DNA of 20,000 nucleotides, from IMG/VR virus record IMGVR_UViG_3300025789_000001. The stretch is one strand, 5' to 3'. A model generated the notes under the pieces. The model did no database searches, was not told the origin of the DNA, and worked only from the letters and a program-made list of their open reading frames with translations. Each line of letters begins with the position of its first letter. Positions within the stretch are counted from its first letter, which is position 1. Positions 1-9,876 of this stretch are shown here, piece after piece. The stretch comes from an uncultured virus (IMG/VR IMGVR_UViG_3300025789_000001). Taxonomy: Duplodnaviria; Heunggongvirae; Uroviricota; Caudoviricetes. A program made the translations under genes and the position numbers.

Positions 1-411
1 CAACAGGCAGAACGCCCAAAAGCATGGTCTTTGCCCGAATTGTTACCTGAACCAGACAAGCAAGCAGGTTTTTCTTATCGATGGGTTAGGGTTTCGATGC
101 TAAACAACGCTGACCCCCGTAATCTTTCATCAAAATTGAGAGAAGGCTGGGAACCAGTCAGAGCTGAAGAGCAACCGAAATATGGAATGTTAACCGATCC
201 AGATAGTCGCTATAAGGACAATATCGAGATTGGTGGTTTATTACTCTGCAAGATTCCTGAGGAATTTGTGAAAGCAAGGATGGATTATGAGGCCAACCAA
301 ACCCAATCAAATGCAGAGGCAGTAGATAATAGTTTTATGAGACAAAGTGACACTCGGATGCCTCTCTTCCAAGAGAGAAAATCTACAGTTAGCTTTGGAA
401 AAGGTTCTTAA
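1..411 (+). CDS. Conserved phage head-module protein upstream of decoration/capsid genes (5'-truncated by window edge)
   Basis: Frame 1 is open from base 1 (QQAERPKAWSLPELLPEP...), so the TTG at 31 is probably not the true start. The YRWVR...KLREGWEPV...IEIGGLLLCKIP pattern is one I recognise from genes preceding gpT-like capsid genes in aquatic phages. Confidence 0.75.
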   Translation, partial: QQAERPKAWSLPELLPEPDKQAGFSYRWVRVSMLNNADPRNLSSKLREGWEPVRAEEQPKYGMLTDPDSRYKDNIEIGGLLLCKIPEEFVKARMDYEANQTQSNAEAVDNSFMRQSDTRMPLFQERKSTVSFGKGS

Positions 412-1315: not shown

Positions 1316-2218
1316 ATGGCTATTTCTCGTGCACAACTACTAAAAGAGTTGCTTCCTGGATTAAACGCATTGTTTGGTCTTGAGTATGCTCGTTATGGTG
1401 AAGAACACAAAGAGATCTATGAAATCGAGACCTCTGAGCGTTCTTTTGAAGAAGAAACAAAACTGTCAGGCTTCTCAGCTGCTCCAGTCAAAAACGAAGG
1501 CCAAGCCATCGCTTATGACAACGGACAAGAAGCTTGGACAGCTCGTTACAACCACGAAACTATCGCTTTGGGCTTCAGCTTGACTGAAGAGGCAATCGAA
1601 GATAACTTGTATGACTCGTTATCTGGTCGCTATACCAAGGCTTTGGCTCGTGCTATGGCTTACACCAAGCAAGTTAAAGGTGCTGCTGTATTGAATAACG
1701 GCTTTAATAGCTCTTTCACCTATGGTGATGGACAGCCTTTGTTCTCAACAGCTCATCCATTGATTTCTGGTGGAACCAACGCAAACACCCCATCTACTCC
1801 TGCTGACTTGAACGAAACCGCATTGGAAAATGCTGTTATTCAAATCGCTGCTTGGACTGATGAGCGTGGTCTGTTGATCGCTGCAAAACCTAAGAAATTG
1901 ATTGTTCCACCTGCACTCCAGTTCGTTGCTACTCGTTTGTTAGAGACAGAACTCCGTGTTGGTACAAACAACAATGACATCAACGCAATTAAGAACAACG
2001 GTTCTGTTCCAGAAGGTTACACAATTAACCACTTCTTGACCGCAACCAACGCATGGTTCTTGACCACTGATGTTCCAAACGGTTTGAAGATGTTTGTTCG
2101 TACCCCATTGCAAAACAGCATGGACGGTGACTTCGATACTGGTAACGTGAGATACAAATCTCGTGAGCGTTACAGCTTCGGTGTTTCTGACCCATTGGGC
2201 GTATACGGTTCATACTAA
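1316..2218 (+). CDS. Major capsid protein (HK97 fold, Mu gpT-like family)
   Basis: 300 aa; SD TAAGGAG; N-terminus MAISRAQLLKELLPGLNALFGLEY and C-terminal GDFDTGNVRYKSRERYSFG are characteristic of this capsid family; followed by a terminator. Confidence 0.9.
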   Translation: MAISRAQLLKELLPGLNALFGLEYARYGEEHKEIYEIETSERSFEEETKLSGFSAAPVKNEGQAIAYDNGQEAWTARYNHETIALGFSLTEEAIEDNLYDSLSGRYTKALARAMAYTKQVKGAAVLNNGFNSSFTYGDGQPLFSTAHPLISGGTNANTPSTPADLNETALENAVIQIAAWTDERGLLIAAKPKKLIVPPALQFVATRLLETELRVGTNNNDINAIKNNGSVPEGYTINHFLTATNAWFLTTDVPNGLKMFVRTPLQNSMDGDFDTGNVRYKSRERYSFGVSDPLGVYGSY

Positions 2219-2241
2219 AATACTCTCGTGAGGAGTTTTGG

Positions 2242-2269
2242 CCCCGCCTTAAAAAAGCGGGGTTTTTTT
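2242..2269 (+). terminator. Rho-independent terminator after major capsid gene
   Basis: CCCCGC (2242-2247) pairs with GCGGGG (2257-2262), followed by a T7 tract, 23 nt after the capsid stop. Confidence 0.85.
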
Positions 2270-2280
2270 ATTTAAAAGCG

Positions 2281-2308
2281 TTGTTAATATTTAAAAATGT
2301 AGTAAAAT
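2281..2308 (+). promoter_or_regulatory. Putative sigma70-type promoter
   Basis: TTGTTA (2281-2286), 16-bp AT-rich spacer, TAAAAT (2303-2308). It lies right after a terminator, and the predicted start (~2315) coincides with the 5' end of the structured element. Confidence 0.5.
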
Positions 2309-2315
2309 CATCATA

Positions 2316-2391
2316 TCTGGGTATTTCGCTTATGCCACCACTGCCCCAGCAGACGATGCAAAGATCGGCATAAGTACTTTTGCATAAGGAG
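2316..2391 (+). ncRNA. Structured, doubly pseudoknotted RNA element; candidate Mu-gpT-DE-like motif
   Basis: Pairings visible by eye: GCTTATGCC 2328-2336 with GGCATAAGT 2367-2375; CTGC 2341-2344 with GCAG 2349-2352, whose loop CCCA is complementary to TGGG 2318-2321; ATGCAAAG 2356-2363 with TTTTGCAT 2378-2385. The position downstream of a gpT-like gene matches my recollection of the Mu-gpT-DE motif; not verified by a covariance model. Confidence 0.65.
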
Positions 2392-2397
2392 TCCATT

Positions 2398-3111
2398 ATG
2401 GGACGTAGTACATTTGAAGGTCCAATTCTCTCTGGTGATAACCGTTTCGGTCCAGTTCGTGACGTTGGTTACGCAGATTTAATTCAATCAGCTTTACTAG
2501 ATTTTTCAGTAACAACAGCTAATACTGCTAACTACGGTGGCGGTTCTAGAGTTTTTGTTGCTTCAAACAATATTCCTAATAGTGCTGCAACTATCTACAC
2601 GCCACAAAATGGTGTTTATAGCACTAACGGACCTACAGCTGCTACAGCTCCAACAGCTGATGCAACAACTACCGTGTACCGTGGCGTAGTATTTTATTTG
2701 CCATACGGTTCTAATATTACTGACGTTATTCTTGATATTGGCACAATTCCAAAAGATACTGCTGGTACTCCTTTGGCAGTAACAGCTATTCAACCATACG
2801 TTTCTAACAACTTTGCAACTTCTACTGGTGTTTATGGCACATTTGCTAACATCTCTAGTCCAGCTACACAGCGTTACACAGCAACTTATGTTGGTACACA
2901 ATTGCCAAATGCAAGCTCTACATTACAAGATTTCCAAAATTTACAACCTGGTACACAACCTACATGGTTCTCACAAGTGGTTGTAACTTTGGCAATGACT
3001 ACATCAACTGCTGGTTTATCTTCTGGTCAGATTGAAGTATCGTTACGTTATAACCAGCTTGATCTGAACATTGGTAACAGTACAACTTATCCATATGGTA
3101 ACTTTGATTAA
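2398..3111 (+). CDS. Putative virion (minor head/decoration) protein
   Basis: Start reassigned from 2380 to ATG 2398 because AAGGAG lies at 2386-2391. 237 aa; MGRSTFEGP resembles the MxxTTFSGP N-terminus of post-capsid genes in related phages; beta-rich, Thr-rich. Confidence 0.65.
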   Translation: MGRSTFEGPILSGDNRFGPVRDVGYADLIQSALLDFSVTTANTANYGGGSRVFVASNNIPNSAATIYTPQNGVYSTNGPTAATAPTADATTTVYRGVVFYLPYGSNITDVILDIGTIPKDTAGTPLAVTAIQPYVSNNFATSTGVYGTFANISSPATQRYTATYVGTQLPNASSTLQDFQNLQPGTQPTWFSQVVVTLAMTTSTAGLSSGQIEVSLRYNQLDLNIGNSTTYPYGNFD

Positions 3112-3121
3112 TAGTCTGATT

Positions 3122-3143
3122 GGGGTCTTCGGACCCCTTTTTT
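3122..3143 (+). terminator. Rho-independent terminator with cUUCGg tetraloop
   Basis: GGGGTC-TTCG-GACCCC followed by T6. Confidence 0.9.
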
Positions 3144-3163: not shown

Positions 3164-5731
3164 ATGGCGTGGGACTTACTAAATTTCTTTGCACCCCTAA
3201 ATCAACAGGGTGGCAATGCACAAACTGGTGCTATGGGAACTCAAACTGCGAGTACCCCTTGGACTGGTATTGATGGTGCAGCTCAATTTGTAGCACCGCA
3301 ACGTCTGCGTGACGTTGTAGGTAAGCTCAAAGTTTCACAATCGCAAAACATTTATGATGCCGACTTTGAGTATGGTGTTCAGCCTTTGCGTTGGGAACAA
3401 TTCATTAATAACGTCTCTGGACAAGCCTATATTGTTCAAAACCCAGGTTTAGGTGGCGTTTCAATGAACATTGGTGGAGGCAACACTCCAGGTGACATTA
3501 CTATTCGTCAATCACGCCCATATCACCGTTATCAGCCAGGTAAAACCATGTACATGGCTTCTAACGTCAACTTTGGTGCCTCTGTATCTGGTCAGACCCA
3601 GCGTGTTGGTATTTTTGATGATTCCAATGGAATTTTCTTTATGCAAACTGGTCCGTCTGGTGGATCATTAAACCCTTATGCAATGAACGTAGTTATTCGT
3701 TCTGATGCTGGTGGATTGCCAACAGATCAAGTTATTCCAATGGATCAATGGAATGGTAATAAAAATATTATCAATGCAATTGACTGGACTAAAGTTCAGA
3801 TGATTTGGATGGAATACGCTTGGTATGGTGCTGGTGCACTTCGTTGGGGTGTAACAATCAATGGCGAGCCTTGGGTTCTGCATCAAATCGGTATAGCTAA
3901 CGCTGTAGTTAATGGCGTTAAACAAGTTCAACCTTGGAGCCGTACTGGTAACTTGCCTGTTCGTTATGAACAGCGTGATAACGGCAGTTCTGCTGCATCT
4001 TTAATGACACACTATGGTGTTTCAGTATTGATTGAAGGTGGTATTGATAAACAACGTGGATTTACCTATTCATATGGTAATGATGCTAAAACTCAAAACC
4101 GTACTGTTCCTGCATCCGCAGTTCGTTATCCAGCTTTATCATTCCGCATGAGAGCTGTTGGTACAGATATTTTTGATCAAACTAACGCAGCAGCAACTGG
4201 CGGTAGCCCAACTACTTTGTCTATTAGTGCAGCAACTCCAGCTATTAGTTCTGTTGTTGGTCAGCCTAATGGCGGTCAATCTTTGGTTACTTTTGCTTCA
4301 GCACACGGTTATACAGTAACTAACCCAGCTAATGCAAACAGTGCTGCTCAATACATCACTTTAAGTTCATTTACTGAAACAGCTACTATTGCTTCTGGTA
4401 ACTATGCGTTTTCTGGCACTACAAGCCCTATCGTAACTGTTACTACAGCAGTTGCTACTGGTGCATTGCAACCTGGCATGACATTATCTGGCACAGGTAT
4501 TGTTGGTACACCTACAATTGTTGCTCAGTTAACTGCTACCAGTTCAGCTGTTGGATCACAAGCTTACGCAAGTGGAGGTGCTGCTGGTTCTAGCGTTGTT
4601 GTATTAGCAGCTGGAACATCATTTGCAGTGGGCCAGTTAATTGCTGGTACAGGTATTGCTCCAAGTACTTATATTCAAGCTGTTAACGGTGCAACAATTA
4701 CTGTAACTAAAGCATTTACAGCCCAAGTATCTGGCACTGTAACTTCTTATGCACCTGGTGGTCTTGGTACTTACTCTATAAGTGCTGCCCAATCTGGTGT
4801 AACAGGTACATTAACAGCTACCACTACTTACGCTGCTCAAACATGGCTCATCCAGTCCGTTCCATCAACAACGACTATGGTTTTGCCAATCCAGTTAGTT
4901 AACGGAGCAACATTGACTTCTACTCCAACAGCAACATATTGGGGTGCAAATCAATGGGTTGGTAAGTCTGTTTACTACTTGGCTAGTTTGCCAGCTATCA
5001 GTACTATCTCAAACCCAGCATTGACTACAGTTGCAGGTGTCAATAACTACTCATCTACTATTACATTTGCCTCAGTGCATAATTTAAAAACAGGTGATGT
5101 AATCGTTATTAGTGGCTCTACACCAGCGTATATGAACGGTCAGTACTCTGTTACTGTAACTTCAACTACAGCTGTGTCAGTAAGCTGGGGTTATTTTGCT
5201 TCTGCTCCTGCAAACTATACATCTGGAGCTAGTGCAGTAAGTCCTTATACAGGTCGTATTACATCCAATACAACCAGCACAATTACATTCCAAGATGTAG
5301 TTACTGGTTTGCCATTGGCTAATGGTCCTGCATCTGGAAACAGCTATCAGATTGGTTTGATTGATCGTGGTCAATTATTGCCAGCTACATTGCTATTGAA
5401 CTCTTCTGCTACTTGTTTGGTTGAGTTGATTTCTAGTACTCCTACTAACCAGCTGTCTTTAAGTCAAGCTAACTTTGTTCCATTAAGTACTTTGGGTTCA
5501 TACAACTCATTTGCTGAACAAGATTTGTCTGCTACGACATTGGCTGGTGGTGAGGTTGTATATGCGTTCTCTACTCCTCCTAACGGCTTGCAACAGCTTG
5601 ATTTGAGTAACTTCTTCCCTGTATTGACAAACATTAAAGGTAACGTAGCTGACATTTTGACAGTTGCTGTGACTTCTTCTGCTGGTGCTACAGTCCAGGT
5701 AAACGTAGTTGCTCAGGAAGCGATGGCTTAA
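3164..5731 (+). CDS. Large multidomain virion protein (YQPGK-type beta-sandwich domain plus multiple inserted beta modules)
   Basis: 855 aa; SD TAAGGAG; N-terminal RYQPGK...RVGIFD...WYGAG..R motif seen in phage structural proteins; Thr/Ser/Ala/Gly-rich central region with repeated modules. Confidence 0.7.
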   Translation: MAWDLLNFFAPLNQQGGNAQTGAMGTQTASTPWTGIDGAAQFVAPQRLRDVVGKLKVSQSQNIYDADFEYGVQPLRWEQFINNVSGQAYIVQNPGLGGVSMNIGGGNTPGDITIRQSRPYHRYQPGKTMYMASNVNFGASVSGQTQRVGIFDDSNGIFFMQTGPSGGSLNPYAMNVVIRSDAGGLPTDQVIPMDQWNGNKNIINAIDWTKVQMIWMEYAWYGAGALRWGVTINGEPWVLHQIGIANAVVNGVKQVQPWSRTGNLPVRYEQRDNGSSAASLMTHYGVSVLIEGGIDKQRGFTYSYGNDAKTQNRTVPASAVRYPALSFRMRAVGTDIFDQTNAAATGGSPTTLSISAATPAISSVVGQPNGGQSLVTFASAHGYTVTNPANANSAAQYITLSSFTETATIASGNYAFSGTTSPIVTVTTAVATGALQPGMTLSGTGIVGTPTIVAQLTATSSAVGSQAYASGGAAGSSVVVLAAGTSFAVGQLIAGTGIAPSTYIQAVNGATITVTKAFTAQVSGTVTSYAPGGLGTYSISAAQSGVTGTLTATTTYAAQTWLIQSVPSTTTMVLPIQLVNGATLTSTPTATYWGANQWVGKSVYYLASLPAISTISNPALTTVAGVNNYSSTITFASVHNLKTGDVIVISGSTPAYMNGQYSVTVTSTTAVSVSWGYFASAPANYTSGASAVSPYTGRITSNTTSTITFQDVVTGLPLANGPASGNSYQIGLIDRGQLLPATLLLNSSATCLVELISSTPTNQLSLSQANFVPLSTLGSYNSFAEQDLSATTLAGGEVVYAFSTPPNGLQQLDLSNFFPVLTNIKGNVADILTVAVTSSAGATVQVNVVAQEAMA

Positions 5732-5732
5732 T

Positions 5733-5978
5733 ATGAAAACTCCTGCTTGGCAACGCAAAGAGGGCAAAAACCCTAAGGGCGGTTTAAATACCAAGGGGAG
5801 AGCTTCTTATAACAAGGAACATGGTGCTCATTTAAAAGCACCACAACCTGAAGGTGGTAGCCGTAAAAAATCTTTCTGTGCTCGCATGGAAGGCATGAAA
5901 AAGAGATTGACCAGTGCGGAAATTGCTAATGATCCAAACAGCCGTATTAACAAATCATTACGCAAATGGAAATGCTAA
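5733..5978 (+). CDS. Small basic conserved phage protein (possibly DUF6321-like)
   Basis: Start reassigned to ATG 5733, just after the upstream TAA. 81 aa, AWQRKEGKNPKGGLN...RKKSFCARM...LRKWKC. Family name is from memory. Confidence 0.65.
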   Translation: MKTPAWQRKEGKNPKGGLNTKGRASYNKEHGAHLKAPQPEGGSRKKSFCARMEGMKKRLTSAEIANDPNSRINKSLRKWKC

Positions 5979-5979
5979 A

Positions 5980-6228
5980 ATGAGCGAGATTGACCCAATT
6001 AAAACTGCTAGAGAACTAGCTACTCATGCAAATGATATACAGCATCTTCAGGCAGATATGGATAAACTGGTTAAAGACATGGAAGAAGTTAAGCAGTCTT
6101 TAGCAGACATTCAAAAGATGCTTGGAGAACAGGCCTCAGCCAAAAAAACTTTACACAATGTTTTAACTCTAGGCGCTGGTTTAGCAGGTGGTATCATAGT
6201 ATGGATTCTTGATAGGTGGTTTAAATAA
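5980..6228 (+). CDS. Coiled-coil protein with C-terminal transmembrane segment (XhlA/holin-like architecture)
   Basis: Start reassigned to ATG 5980. 82 aa with a heptad pattern followed by hydrophobic VLTLGAGLAGGIIVWIL. Confidence 0.6.
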   Translation: MSEIDPIKTARELATHANDIQHLQADMDKLVKDMEEVKQSLADIQKMLGEQASAKKTLHNVLTLGAGLAGGIIVWILDRWFK

Positions 6229-6875
6229 TGCCTAGCAAAAGTAAAAAGCAACACAATTTTATGGAAGCAATCGCCCATAATAAAGCGTTTGCCAAAAAAG
6301 TAGGAGTGCCTCAATCAGTTGGTGAGGATTTTGTAGCAGCCGATAAAGGCAAACATTTTAAAAAAGGTGGAATTAACATGAAAAAACGTAGCGTAAACCC
6401 AGCGATGGCAATGATGGCAGCTCGTGCTATGCCAACCCCTCCAGCTCCAGGGCCAGCTATGGCTCCTGCAGGCGCAATGCCAGGCGGCATGAAGCACGGT
6501 GGTTTGTCAAAAGAACACCATAAACATTTGGCTCATCACCATTTGGCAATGGCTGAACATCATATGAAAGAACATGAAGGACATCACAAAATGAAGAAAA
6601 TGGCTTCTGGTGGTAAAGCAGAATCTATGGGACTACGTTCCATGAAGGAAGATGTTGAGAAGGGTTCTGACAAACACGGTAAATTTGGTGAAGCTAAAGT
6701 TCAAAAGACTGGCCACACTAAAGGTAAAAATCTTGGCGATGCAGGCAAAAAAGAGCCAATTGAATCAGAAAAAAACATGAAGTCATTTATGAAAAAAATG
6801 GCTAAAGGTGGTTCTACTTCTAGCCGTGCAGATGGCGCAGCTATTCGTGGCAAAACAAAAACCAAATATTGTTAA
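6228..6875 (+). CDS. Basic Lys/Met/His-rich low-complexity protein with four hydrophobic-x-x-GG motifs
   Basis: 215 aa; TAATG coupling; contains FKKGG, MKHGG, MASGG, MAKGG, a His-rich block and C-terminal RADGAAIRGKTK. Confidence 0.7.
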   Translation: MPSKSKKQHNFMEAIAHNKAFAKKVGVPQSVGEDFVAADKGKHFKKGGINMKKRSVNPAMAMMAARAMPTPPAPGPAMAPAGAMPGGMKHGGLSKEHHKHLAHHHLAMAEHHMKEHEGHHKMKKMASGGKAESMGLRSMKEDVEKGSDKHGKFGEAKVQKTGHTKGKNLGDAGKKEPIESEKNMKSFMKKMAKGGSTSSRADGAAIRGKTKTKYC

Positions 6876-6888
6876 TTAGGAGAAGTAT

Positions 6889-7083
6889 ATGAAAAACATG
6901 GTTAAAGAGCACATGGAGCCAGAATCAGGCCCAGACATGAAGCGTCATGATGAGTTCATTTCTGAGCATGAAACAGAAACCCATAAGCATCACAAACATC
7001 ATTTCAAGAAACACGCTGAAGGTCACAAGCATCACATGGATCATGTAGAAGCTATGTGCTACGGTGGTAAGGCTCACAAATGA
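6889..7083 (+). CDS. Small His-rich protein
   Basis: 64 aa with 14 His; SD TAGGAG; ends MCYGGKAHK. Confidence 0.7.
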   Translation: MKNMVKEHMEPESGPDMKRHDEFISEHETETHKHHKHHFKKHAEGHKHHMDHVEAMCYGGKAHK

Positions 7084-7340
7084 GAGCCAGTCGTGGTATG
7101 GGTGCGGTAAACCCATCCAAGATGCCGAAAAAGAAGGTTATCGTAAGACAAGATAACCCAGAAGATGTTGATGTGTATGCCAAAGGCGGCCAGGTTTGGG
7201 ATAAACCTCGTCCTAAAGAATTAGGAAAGCCCAAGAAATTATCTTCTGCTAAAAAGTCAAAAGCAAAAGCAATGGCTAAAGCAGCTGGTAGACCTTACCC
7301 AAACCTAGTTGATAACATGAGAGCAGCAAGGAAAAAATAA
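7080..7340 (+). CDS. Small basic protein
   Basis: 86 aa; ATGA overlap; internal YAKGG; C-terminal AGRPYPNLVDN motif. Confidence 0.7.
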   Translation: MRASRGMGAVNPSKMPKKKVIVRQDNPEDVDVYAKGGQVWDKPRPKELGKPKKLSSAKKSKAKAMAKAAGRPYPNLVDNMRAARKK

Positions 7341-9218: not shown

Positions 9219-9563
9219 ATGGCAATGCAAAAACAACGTGGCATTAAAACTGGCGATCCCTTTGAACCAAAAAATGCAGAAGACAATATGAAAAAAGGCG
9301 GTAAAGTTATGGAAAAAGAATCTAAAGCAGAAATGCGTAAAGAAGAAAAAGCTGACAAAAAGCAAGATGTTAAGCTAATTAAGAAAGCTTTCAAAGAGCA
9401 TGATGCTCAAGAACATCCTGGCAAACACACTAAACTGGCTTTGAAAAAAGGCGGTGACGTTAAAAAAATGGCTAAAGGTGGCGTAACTGGCAAAGAAATG
9501 AAAGCCGTTGGTCGCAATGTAGCCCGTGCTATGAACCAAAAATCCAGCTCAAGAGGTCGTTAA
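9219..9563 (+). CDS. Lys-rich small protein with three hydrophobic-x-KGG motifs
   Basis: 114 aa; SD AGGAG; contains MKKGG, LKKGG, MAKGG. Confidence 0.7.
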   Translation: MAMQKQRGIKTGDPFEPKNAEDNMKKGGKVMEKESKAEMRKEEKADKKQDVKLIKKAFKEHDAQEHPGKHTKLALKKGGDVKKMAKGGVTGKEMKAVGRNVARAMNQKSSSRGR

Positions 9564-9564
9564 T

Positions 9565-9876
9565 ATGGCAATCGCAAAAAATGTAAAACCTACTACCAAG
9601 AATAGCCCAAAGGTTACTATTGGTAAAAACAAATTTGCAGAACCAGCAGATGCTTACGCTAATCCGCACACCAATACTGAGAAACATATTACTGGTCAAG
9701 AAGTAATGGATCGTGGTGAGTATGCTCATACCAAGGCCGCTAAAGATGTTACTTTGCAAGACCCAATTAAGAGTGGCGTTAGCTACGGTGAGTCCAAAGT
9801 CAAGACTTCTGGTATTGAGATGCGTGGAGCTGGAGCAGCTACCAAAGGCCGTATGTCCAGAGGACCAATGGCATGA
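9565..9876 (+). CDS. Small basic protein with RGxGAAxKG tail
   Basis: 103 aa; ends GIEMRGAGAATKGRMSRGPMA. Confidence 0.7.
   Translation: MAIAKNVKPTTKNSPKVTIGKNKFAEPADAYANPHTNTEKHITGQEVMDRGEYAHTKAAKDVTLQDPIKSGVSYGESKVKTSGIEMRGAGAATKGRMSRGPMA

What the first reader, a model, noticed from the sequence alone, without database searches (positions are those of the whole stretch)
2316..2400. Doubly pseudoknotted RNA abutting the RBS of the post-capsid gene
Seen: about 70 nt hold four interlocking helices. These are a 9-bp stem (2328-2336 with 2367-2375) enclosing a CTGC/GCAG hairpin, whose CCCA loop can pair with upstream TGGG (2318-2321), and an 8-bp helix (2356-2363 with 2378-2385) that crosses the main stem. 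The last helix ends one base before the AAGGAG SD (2386-2391). Known: a bioinformatically defined motif of unknown function, Mu-gpT-DE, was reported downstream of gpT-like capsid genes (recalled, not verified). Inference: here the element lies beyond the capsid terminator and behind its own promoter, so it looks like a 5' leader of the next gene rather than a capsid 3' element. It could be a translational switch, a protein-binding autoregulatory site, a nuclease-resistant cap, a ribozyme or a virion-assembly RNA.
Basis: partly seen in the sequence, partly recalled or inferred. Interest (0 to 1): 0.8.

Follow-up and report, generated by a model that had tools for sequence, protein, structure and literature searches.

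The report
Phage kissing-loop leader over ribosome site
The first 70-odd bases of the message for a capsid-decorating protein in a very abundant group of lake and ocean phages fold into a conserved, doubly knotted RNA that clamps onto the ribosome landing site, so it most likely controls when or how much of that protein is made; it is an uncatalogued, larger relative of a known orphan RNA motif.

Summary
Real. The four helices exist and covary across relatives. Comparison corrects the fold: A 5 bp, B 9, C 3, D 6 (not 8), plus a lone pair C2354-G2363 and a 3-bp hairpin (2377-2379/2386-2388) that buries half of the SD, so D is a loop-loop kiss. The element starts just after a conserved -10 box, travels with the downstream putative cement/decoration gene when endonucleases insert after the capsid gene (18 of 56 loci), and was seen before no other gene. 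It fails the Rfam Mu-gpT-DE model but shares its core and genomic slot; hybrids link the two. In sister forms the same loop pairs with the start codon (7 of 7 independent changes) or the SD itself. Best reading: cis-acting control of translation initiation (0.7), most likely protein-switched; the ligand is not shown. The phage is HTVC023P-type; cultured HTVC023P and HTVC027P carry the element. This scan already reported the family on other DNA at least eight times. New variant of a known orphan motif.

The parts
1316..2218 (+). Major capsid protein gene (Mu gpT-like / Phage_capsid_4), HTVC023P-type phage
   Evidence: Pfam PF25209 E 9e-14, PF10124 E 2e-10; phrog_371; 61-64% identical to HTVC023P/HTVC027P capsids
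2240..2269 (+). Intrinsic-terminator-like hairpin (2240-2247/2257-2264) and U tract after the capsid gene
2281..2308 (+). Sigma70-type promoter candidate (-35 TTGTTA, -10 TAAAAT); predicted start about 2315, 1-3 nt before helix A
   Evidence: 9 of 12 matches; count in the region not above chance; positional conservation of TAnnnT 12-18 nt before the first helix in 77 of 95 window-type and 118 of 140 Mu-gpT-DE-type members vs 5 and 3 in control windows, 59 of 93 in a held-out set; start site not measured
2317..2349 (+). Helix A (pseudoknot 1): 2317-2321 pairs with 2345-2349, burying the predicted 5' end
   Evidence: Cognate 5/5 WC match in 95 of 97 members vs 78 of 6614 non-cognate combinations; predicted from the core alone in 93 of 106 held-out hits, the other 13 being chance matches
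2328..2375 (+). Helix B (main stem): 2328-2336 with 2367-2375, small internal loop 2337-2339/2365-2366
   Evidence: 11 of 11 alignment pairs show two-sided changes
2340..2364 (+). Conserved core: A2340, helix C 2341-2343/2350-2352, A2353, lone pair C2354-G2363 closing an 8-nt loop, A2364
   Evidence: Nine invariant columns in 74 sequences; middle pair of C: T-A 55, A-T 38, G-C 2, C-G 2 of 97, 14 joint changes on a capsid tree; lone pair C-G 143, U-A 34, U.G 2
2356..2385 (+). Helix D (pseudoknot 2, loop-loop): 2356-2361 with 2380-2385
   Evidence: 6/6 WC in 89 of 97 vs 493 of 7412 non-cognate; 6 of 6 pairs with two-sided changes in a sequence-only alignment
2377..2388 (+). Hairpin F: 2377-2379 with 2386-2388; presents the 3' strand of D as its loop and pairs the first half of the SD
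   Evidence: WC in 133, 134, 127 of 141 vs shuffled means 68, 116, 96; CUU/AAG 82, CUC/GAG 22, GUG/CAC 14, ACC/GGG 5, GCG/CGC 3; 3/3 in 86 of 88 held-out members
2386..2391 (+). Shine-Dalgarno AAGGAG
   Evidence: Sequence; an SD 4-mer begins 0-1 nt after D in 111 of 141 members
2398..3111 (+). Regulated gene, 237 aa, putative capsid cement/decoration protein with the family N-terminal peptide M-x-x-(S/T)-T-F-x-G-P
   Evidence: No Pfam, PHROG or PDB sequence hit itself; its family profile matches the ~150-aa family (hhalign probability 97), whose profile weakly hits solved cement/decoration proteins 7dn2 E 0.013, 26de E 0.027, 8cjz E 0.77; homologs annotated 'cement protein' and 'minor capsid protein' in GenBank
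3122..3143 (+). Terminator-like hairpin after the gene, suggesting a monocistronic unit in this phage

Best explanation
A cis-acting 5' leader that controls translation initiation of the capsid cement/decoration gene. The gene has its own promoter; the transcript begins almost at helix A and folds into a compact unit (three-way junction of B, C and a lone pair, with two loop-mediated pseudoknots). The output element is the 8-nt loop that kisses hairpin F: docked, it locks the first half of the SD in F and puts a bulky fold where the 30S subunit must sit (OFF or low); undocked, the 3-bp F stem is too weak to hold the SD (ON). SHOWN: the fold by covariation, its fixed link to this gene's 5' end, and that the same loop targets the SD flank, the SD or the AUG in different subfamilies. 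INFERRED: transcription start, that docking represses, and that it is switched. I commit to a phage-protein-dependent switch as the most likely trigger (about 0.4 of all probability; candidates are the major capsid protein/procapsid, another conserved head gene product, or the conserved N-terminal peptide of the cement protein), which would hold back cement until heads exist; a ligand-free dampener is the next most likely (listed as a rival).
For: Loop partner always lies in the initiation region: directly 5' of or overlapping the SD; start codon in Mu-gpT-DE type (loop -5: start +5 is G:C 120, C:G 19, other 2 of 141; 7 of 7 phylogenetically independent pairs, p 0.016); start codon in hybrids (G:C 92 of 92; C:G 8 of 8 xCCCAA loops), with the SD in a separate hairpin (75 of 82 vs 14% of shuffles); the SD itself in further subfamilies (9 CUCC loops; 52 of 53 CCUAG-type loops pair upstream of the AUG, over CUAGG-AG). 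In Mu-gpT-DE type the SD is also the 3' strand of the main stem. Element stays with the gene across insertions (18 of 56 capsid-picked loci). All 93 held-out structured hits precede this gene family (89 by rule, 4 by eye). In HTVC027P infection (PMC12753301 Table S3) the leader-bearing gene gp62 is the earliest of 11 late genes checked (9 h/15 h level 0.45 vs 0.14 for the capsid gene) and exceeds capsid mRNA at 9 h, as expected if the message is made before heads are. Downstream proteins range from 57 to 246 aa and share only the N-terminal peptide, so a ligand would have to be that peptide or another conserved factor.
Against: No expression, probing, ribosome or binding data; no ligand identified. 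In the window-type form only half the SD is paired, in a 3-bp stem, and 12 of 141 members have no SD 4-mer within 10 nt of D. No conserved mutually exclusive alternative fold was found. Kissing loops are usually stable without ligand (PMC10907184 passage), and D here is a perfect 6-bp helix, which fits a static structure as well. The HTVC027P timing is one phage, mRNA only, and other late genes without the leader also rise early (0.23-0.35). The HTVC027P element was recognised by eye and missed by my model. The cement identity rests on weak profile hits; the fold job did not finish.
Confidence: 0.7

Rival explanations
1. Static, ligand-free dampener or timer (a sub-case of translational control): the fold simply sets a fixed initiation rate so that cement matches capsid output from a separate promoter.
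For: Perfect D helix, few conserved unpaired bases (three A's), free exchange of helix sequences, two architectures switching at least 5 times on the capsid tree.
Against: A plain hairpin would do; retention of a six-element tertiary fold with invariant junction adenosines and fixed spacings suggests recognition by something.
Confidence: 0.2
2. Main role is a nuclease-resistant 5' cap that stabilises an abundant late mRNA.
For: The first helix begins 1-3 nt after the predicted start in both types; helix A ties the 5' end into a pseudoknot.
Against: Does not explain why the loop tracks the start codon and SD by covariation; Mu-gpT-DE type lacks helix A and has only a 4-bp 5' stem. Could be a second function of helix A.
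Confidence: 0.12
3. A small-molecule or ion riboswitch (sub-case of a switch) using the junction as aptamer and the D kiss as expression platform.
For: Works like the env8 cobalamin riboswitch, where a hairpin carrying the RBS docks by a kissing loop (PMC10907184 passages); compact, multiply knotted, directly at the SD.
Against: No Rfam riboswitch match; only three invariant unpaired nucleotides; found only before one virion gene, which gives no metabolic logic.
Confidence: 0.08
4. A self-cleaving ribozyme of a new class.
Against: No match to any ribozyme model in Rfam; strand order differs from HDV-like folds (recalled topology); the 5' end is already set by a promoter; few invariant unpaired bases; D pairs with a start codon in sister forms.
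Confidence: 0.03
5. A stand-alone RNA used in virion assembly (pRNA-like) or a 3' element of the capsid message.
For: Sits next to the capsid gene; Rfam files Mu-gpT-DE as an sRNA.
Against: No terminator after it; contiguous with SD and AUG; separates from the capsid gene by up to 1.6 kb but was never seen apart from the cement gene; lies beyond the capsid terminator.
Confidence: 0.04

Closest known systems
Mu-gpT-DE RNA, Rfam RF03012 (53 positions, typed 'Gene; sRNA'; accession confirmed in PMC7657543; origin in Weinberg et al. 2017 recalled, the supplement could not be read)
   Same: Same slot (same capsid family, up to 83% identical to the window's capsid; terminator; -10 box; motif; M-A-x-T-T-F-x-G-P gene). 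Same core order: stem B, A, C-x-G helix, A-C, 7-9-nt loop, G-A, stem B'. Same loop pairs into the initiation region. Hybrids carry the window's A/B/C with a Mu-gpT-DE-like loop pairing to AUGG.
   Different: Window form has a 9-10-bp B (vs 4 bp), a 5' pseudoknot A through the loop of C (vs a variable hairpin), and its loop kisses hairpin F just 5' of the SD (vs the start codon, with the SD inside B'). No cross-detection by either covariance model. The Rfam model ends at AUG and shows the loop unpaired.
Translational riboswitches with interdomain docking, e.g. env8 cobalamin riboswitch (L5-L13 kissing loop; PMC10907184 passages)
   Same: A hairpin that carries ribosome-binding sequence docks by a loop-loop helix onto a structured 5' domain.
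   Different: No B12 box or other aptamer signature, no Rfam match, 72 nt only, no ligand known; SD is in the stem of the docking hairpin rather than its loop; controls a virion gene.
Protein-binding pseudoknot operators: E. coli alpha operon/uS4 and rpsO/uS15 (PMC10931766 passages), T4 gene 32 leader (PMC10690425 passage)
   Same: Pseudoknotted leader at or over the RBS that controls initiation; the rpsO family also varies in whether the knot embraces the SD and AUG or lies upstream of them.
   Different: No sequence or topology match shown; the gene product is not a known nucleic-acid-binding protein and only its first 12-16 residues are conserved; binding untested.

Membership tests
Mu-gpT-DE (RF03012) | Covariance-model score at or above 49 bits | tested here: not met
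   No hit in the window at gathering or E<=10, none in 20 homolog loci, best 12.6 bits elsewhere in 5 related genomes and not at the element in G001 and G005; true members score 61-75 bits
Mu-gpT-DE (RF03012) | Downstream of a Mu gpT-like capsid gene and upstream of the same gene family | tested here: met
   (116 of 120 Mu-gpT-DE-pattern loci hold the capsid)
Mu-gpT-DE (RF03012) | Core A-CxG...CxG-AC-loop-GA flanked by an outer stem | tested here: met
   Invariant columns of alignments A1 and A2
Mu-gpT-DE (RF03012) | 4-bp outer stem CCUG/CAGG whose 3' strand is part of the SD; variable hairpin loop in P2 | tested here: not met
   Window has a 9-bp B ending 10 nt before the SD and a fixed 6-nt loop used by pseudoknot A
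Polynucleobacter-1 RNA (RF01718) | Covariance-model match | tested here: not met
   0 of 5 genomes including the window's own at E<=10
Known self-cleaving ribozymes and riboswitch classes in Rfam 15 | Model match | tested here: not met
Self-cleaving ribozymes | Site-specific self-cleavage | not testable with these tools
   Needs a cleavage assay
Translational riboswitch / protein-binding operator | Cis location in the 5' leader with structure overlapping SD or start codon | tested here: met
Translational riboswitch / protein-binding operator | Specific ligand binding that changes initiation | not testable with these tools
   No binding or reporter data available
Translational riboswitch / protein-binding operator | Transcribed from a start just upstream of the structure | tested here: inconclusive
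   Conserved -10 spacing; RNA-library contigs of relatives cover the leader but cannot show starts
phi29-type packaging RNA (recalled) | Independent transcript with its own 3' end | tested here: not met
   No terminator between element and CDS; SD and AUG follow directly

The most novel reading that the evidence does not exclude
The element and Mu-gpT-DE form one widespread class of phage assembly-sensing translational switch: a conserved RNA junction is recognised by a head protein or assembly intermediate, and a modular kissing loop, retargeted in evolution to the SD flank, the SD or the AUG, couples synthesis of a freely exchanged capsid decoration protein to the state of head assembly in one of the most abundant phage groups of oceans and lakes.
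Probability: 0.3. Interest if true: 0.85.

Novelty: new variant of a known kind. Interest (0 to 1): 0.6.

Why it matters
It gives an orphan Rfam motif a testable function and shows that its model stops short of the helix that matters (the pairing with the start codon). It adds at least two uncatalogued sister folds. [quoted passage not shown] How dsDNA phages match decoration-protein output to capsid output from a separate promoter is little studied (own knowledge); a structured-RNA switch would be a new answer. The 72-nt six-element fold is also a good structural target. Within this scan the family is a repeat finding.

Tried and rejected
Rfam scans of window, homologs and hybrids: no relevant match. 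Polynucleobacter-1 considered from memory, rejected. Single-strand MFE gives no significant z-score and cannot show pseudoknots. A sliding-window descriptor scan of the own genome missed its own positive control and was discarded; the covariance model finds one copy. A scan for a U-A version of the lone pair in Mu-gpT-DE type gave 3 chance hits, so that pair is untested there. Two rows (L472, L473) can be read as a C.A mismatch at the lone pair and were dropped by the stem filter. Independent-pair test for the middle pair of C had only 3 supported pairs (p 0.25). No leader-to-coding-region covariation in the window type among the top 32 pairs. No antisense partner longer than 12 nt elsewhere in the genome. 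The loose A/B/D test had no negative control and is used only for the insertion list. RNA runs: only contigs of relatives with small word shares (10-13%), no ends, strand or level. One search was a malformed pattern and gave nothing. Literature: 'Mu-gpT-DE' occurs in one listed work; searches listed no description of this element; PMC10690425 supplements were searched for five short motif strings and 'gpT' in 6 files without a hit, but 3 files (including the two largest) could not be searched, so that survey of 10,006 viral candidates may hold it; the PMC5737381 supplement could not be read.

Full report
1. Observation. The nested fold is unremarkable (z about -1.1 to -1.5), but a descriptor of the four-helix topology fitted 0 of 3000 dinucleotide shuffles (descriptor made from the element). 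Rfam 15 has no match in the window at gathering score or at E up to 10 over 2150-2500.

2. Setting. The window is the end of a complete 70,690-base virus record. The upstream gene is a Mu gpT-like major capsid protein, 61-72% identical to those of HTVC023P, HTVC027P, DSL-LC04 and Yong1/MinM2. A terminator-like hairpin (2240-2269) follows it, then a sigma70-like promoter candidate (2281-2308), the element (2317-2388), a 237-aa gene, and a second terminator-like hairpin (3122-3143). The host is unknown; MAG bins holding relatives are taxonomically scattered. One copy of the element is found in the genome.

3. Conservation and corrected fold. Loci were fetched by capsid (80; 50), by the downstream protein (80) and by DNA patterns (each stopped at 120 rows, so counts are lower bounds and pattern-picked sets are biased). 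Of 303 distinct starts of the downstream gene family with enough upstream DNA, 160 carried Mu-gpT-DE-type RNA, 114 the strict window type and 29 were printed as others, by eye all variants of one of the two. Among 97 distinct strict members, helix A had a 5/5 cognate partner in 95 (non-cognate 78 of 6614) and D a 6/6 WC partner in 89 (non-cognate 493 of 7412). In a sequence-only MAFFT alignment of 74 members, 86.9% of cells pair (shuffles 63.9; slid controls 31-41) and 22 of 25 pairs change on both sides; A is under-counted there by misalignment. On a capsid tree the middle pair of C changes 14 times, each time on both sides. Corrections: G2349 belongs to A, so C is 3 bp; D is 6 bp. A lone pair C2354-G2363 closes the loop that presents D: a scan that fixed the 3' partner as A and left the 5' base free returned mostly U in the same register; totals C-G 143, U-A 34, U.G 2 (two ambiguous rows dropped), with U-A in 13 different loop sequences. 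A 3-bp stem F flanks the 3' strand of D (WC in 133, 134, 127 of 141; shuffled means 68, 116, 96; five pair types; pair-state changes 21, 11, 16 against 37, 19, 22 for independence; the flanking fourth to sixth positions do not pair). D is therefore a loop-loop kiss, and F pairs the AAG of the SD. Held-out check: a metagenome scan fixing only the core gave 120 loci, 12 too short, 106 distinct; 93 had helix A, 88 of them also B and D, F was 3/3 in 86 of the 88, and all 93 preceded the same gene family (89 by rule, 4 by eye); the other 13 lacked A, B, a 6-bp D and the gene. Only nine positions are invariant, three of them unpaired adenosines.

4. Which gene does it belong to? Of 80 capsid-picked loci, 56 held the downstream gene start; in 18 of these, 400-1600 nt with endonuclease-like or other ORFs separate it from the capsid stop, and the element lies at the gene, not at the capsid. 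A TAnnnT box starts 12-18 nt before the first helix in 77 of 95 window-type and 118 of 140 Mu-gpT-DE-type members (controls 5 and 3; 14 of 23 insertion loci). HTVC027P encodes no RNA polymerase (PMC12753301 passage), which fits host-type promoters. The start site itself was not measured.

5. Relation to Mu-gpT-DE. RF03012 (53 positions) does not detect the element, and my model R1 does not detect Mu-gpT-DE loci. True Mu-gpT-DE RNAs occupy the same slot in the same phage group and share the core. Their loop, unpaired in the Rfam consensus, is complementary to the start codon region: G:C 120, C:G 19, other 2 of 141 at loop -5 / start +5, tracking Met-Ala versus Met-Gly in 7 of 7 independent pairs on the capsid tree (p 0.016); their SD is the 3' strand of the outer stem. 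The two types switch at least 5 times on that tree (3 forced by well-supported branches; FastTree). Hybrids exist that have the window's A, B and C but a loop pairing with AUGG (4-6 bp): 92 of 92 loops with G at -5 have C at +5, and 8 of 8 xCCCAA loops have G at +5; their SD region folds into a hairpin in 75 of 82 (shuffles 14%); R1 detects them, RF03012 does not. Seventeen of 106 rows in the first hybrid set had no 4-bp WC target. In further subfamilies the loop pairs with the SD itself. PMC7657543 lists Mu-gpT-DE with 9 (Rfam) and 11 (ZWD) pairs (supplement rows); I could not see whether the ZWD structure includes part of this pairing.

6. The regulated gene. 258 complete downstream proteins run from 57 to 246 aa, fall into several C-terminal families and share mainly the first 12-16 residues. 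The window's family aligns with the 150-aa family (probability 97), whose profile hits solved cement/decoration proteins weakly (E 0.013-0.77, 3 of the top 4 hits); GenBank labels agree. So 'cement/decoration' is probable, not shown. In the HTVC027P time course (PMC12753301 Table S3 rows gp55-gp65), gp62, which carries the element by eye, reaches 0.45 of its 15-h level at 9 h against 0.14 for the capsid gene and 0.23-0.35 for neighbours.

7. Mechanism. Shown: a six-element fold, at the 5' end of this gene only, whose variable loop always pairs within the initiation region. That convergence is the main argument for control of translation initiation (0.7). Inferred: docking of D stabilises F and blocks or slows 30S loading; something switches it. 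A phage head protein is the likeliest trigger (about 0.4), because the junction is conserved while helices and the protein's body are exchanged, and because the message appears before the capsid message; a static dampener (0.2) and a small-molecule ligand (0.08) are the other ways to the same output. 5'-end protection (0.12), ribozyme (0.03) and free assembly RNA (0.04) are weaker.

8. Known systems. It works like docking-type translational riboswitches (PMC10907184 passages) and pseudoknot operators for uS4, uS15 (PMC10931766 passages) and T4 gp32 (PMC10690425 passage), but is a member of none by any test run. It is a relative, not a model-defined member, of RF03012. Papers seen: PMC5737381 passages only, supplement unreadable; PMC7657543 passages and supplement rows; PMC10690425 passages and 6 of 9 supplement files; PMC9599517 passages, no mention of non-coding RNA terms; PMC12753301 passages, section 12, Table S3 rows; others as search listings only. 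Searches listed no description of the element; the unread supplements may hold it.

9. Verdict. Real, well supported by covariation, a new variant of a known orphan motif with a testable function. The scan's notes show the same family reported from at least eight other windows; these are unchecked AI notes and are not counted as support. Interest 0.6.

Noticed in passing
18 of 56 capsid-picked loci, e.g. L010, L011, L022, L030, L071: The gap between the capsid terminator and the leader's promoter is an insertion hot spot for HNH-like and GIY-YIG-like endonuclease ORFs (labels from recalled motifs) and other small ORFs, 400-1600 nt.
   Followed up: partly
G002:C1 ends (L021 and L587): One record carries capsid, endonuclease, leader and downstream gene at both ends with different sequences; probably a chimeric assembly of two strains rather than a true second copy.
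   Followed up: partly
L456:2904-3007 (phage Yong1, capsid 71.5% identical): This relative lacks the element but has a GC-rich leader with a stretch complementary to its SD region that competes with a long hairpin, possibly an independent solution to the same control.
   Followed up: no
window 2398-2445 and homologs: The downstream gene family keeps a 12-16-residue N-terminal peptide while C-terminal parts of 40-230 aa are exchanged, like a capsid anchor carrying interchangeable surface domains.
   Followed up: partly
window 31-411 and 431-1300: Two head-operon genes before the capsid gene have no named family (phrog_36003 unknown function; Atlas 'hypothetical'); they are candidate ligands for the leader.
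   Followed up: partly
window 5709-7340 and 9219-9876: A run of small Lys/His/Met-rich ORFs, one with DUF6321, sits among the structural genes.
   Followed up: no
window 2222-2236: A second small hairpin lies between the capsid stop and the terminator; not seen to be conserved.
   Followed up: no
L288, L333, L386: Mu-gpT-DE-type members with a UUG start codon have a loop base that extends pairing to the first U (3 of 3).
   Followed up: partly
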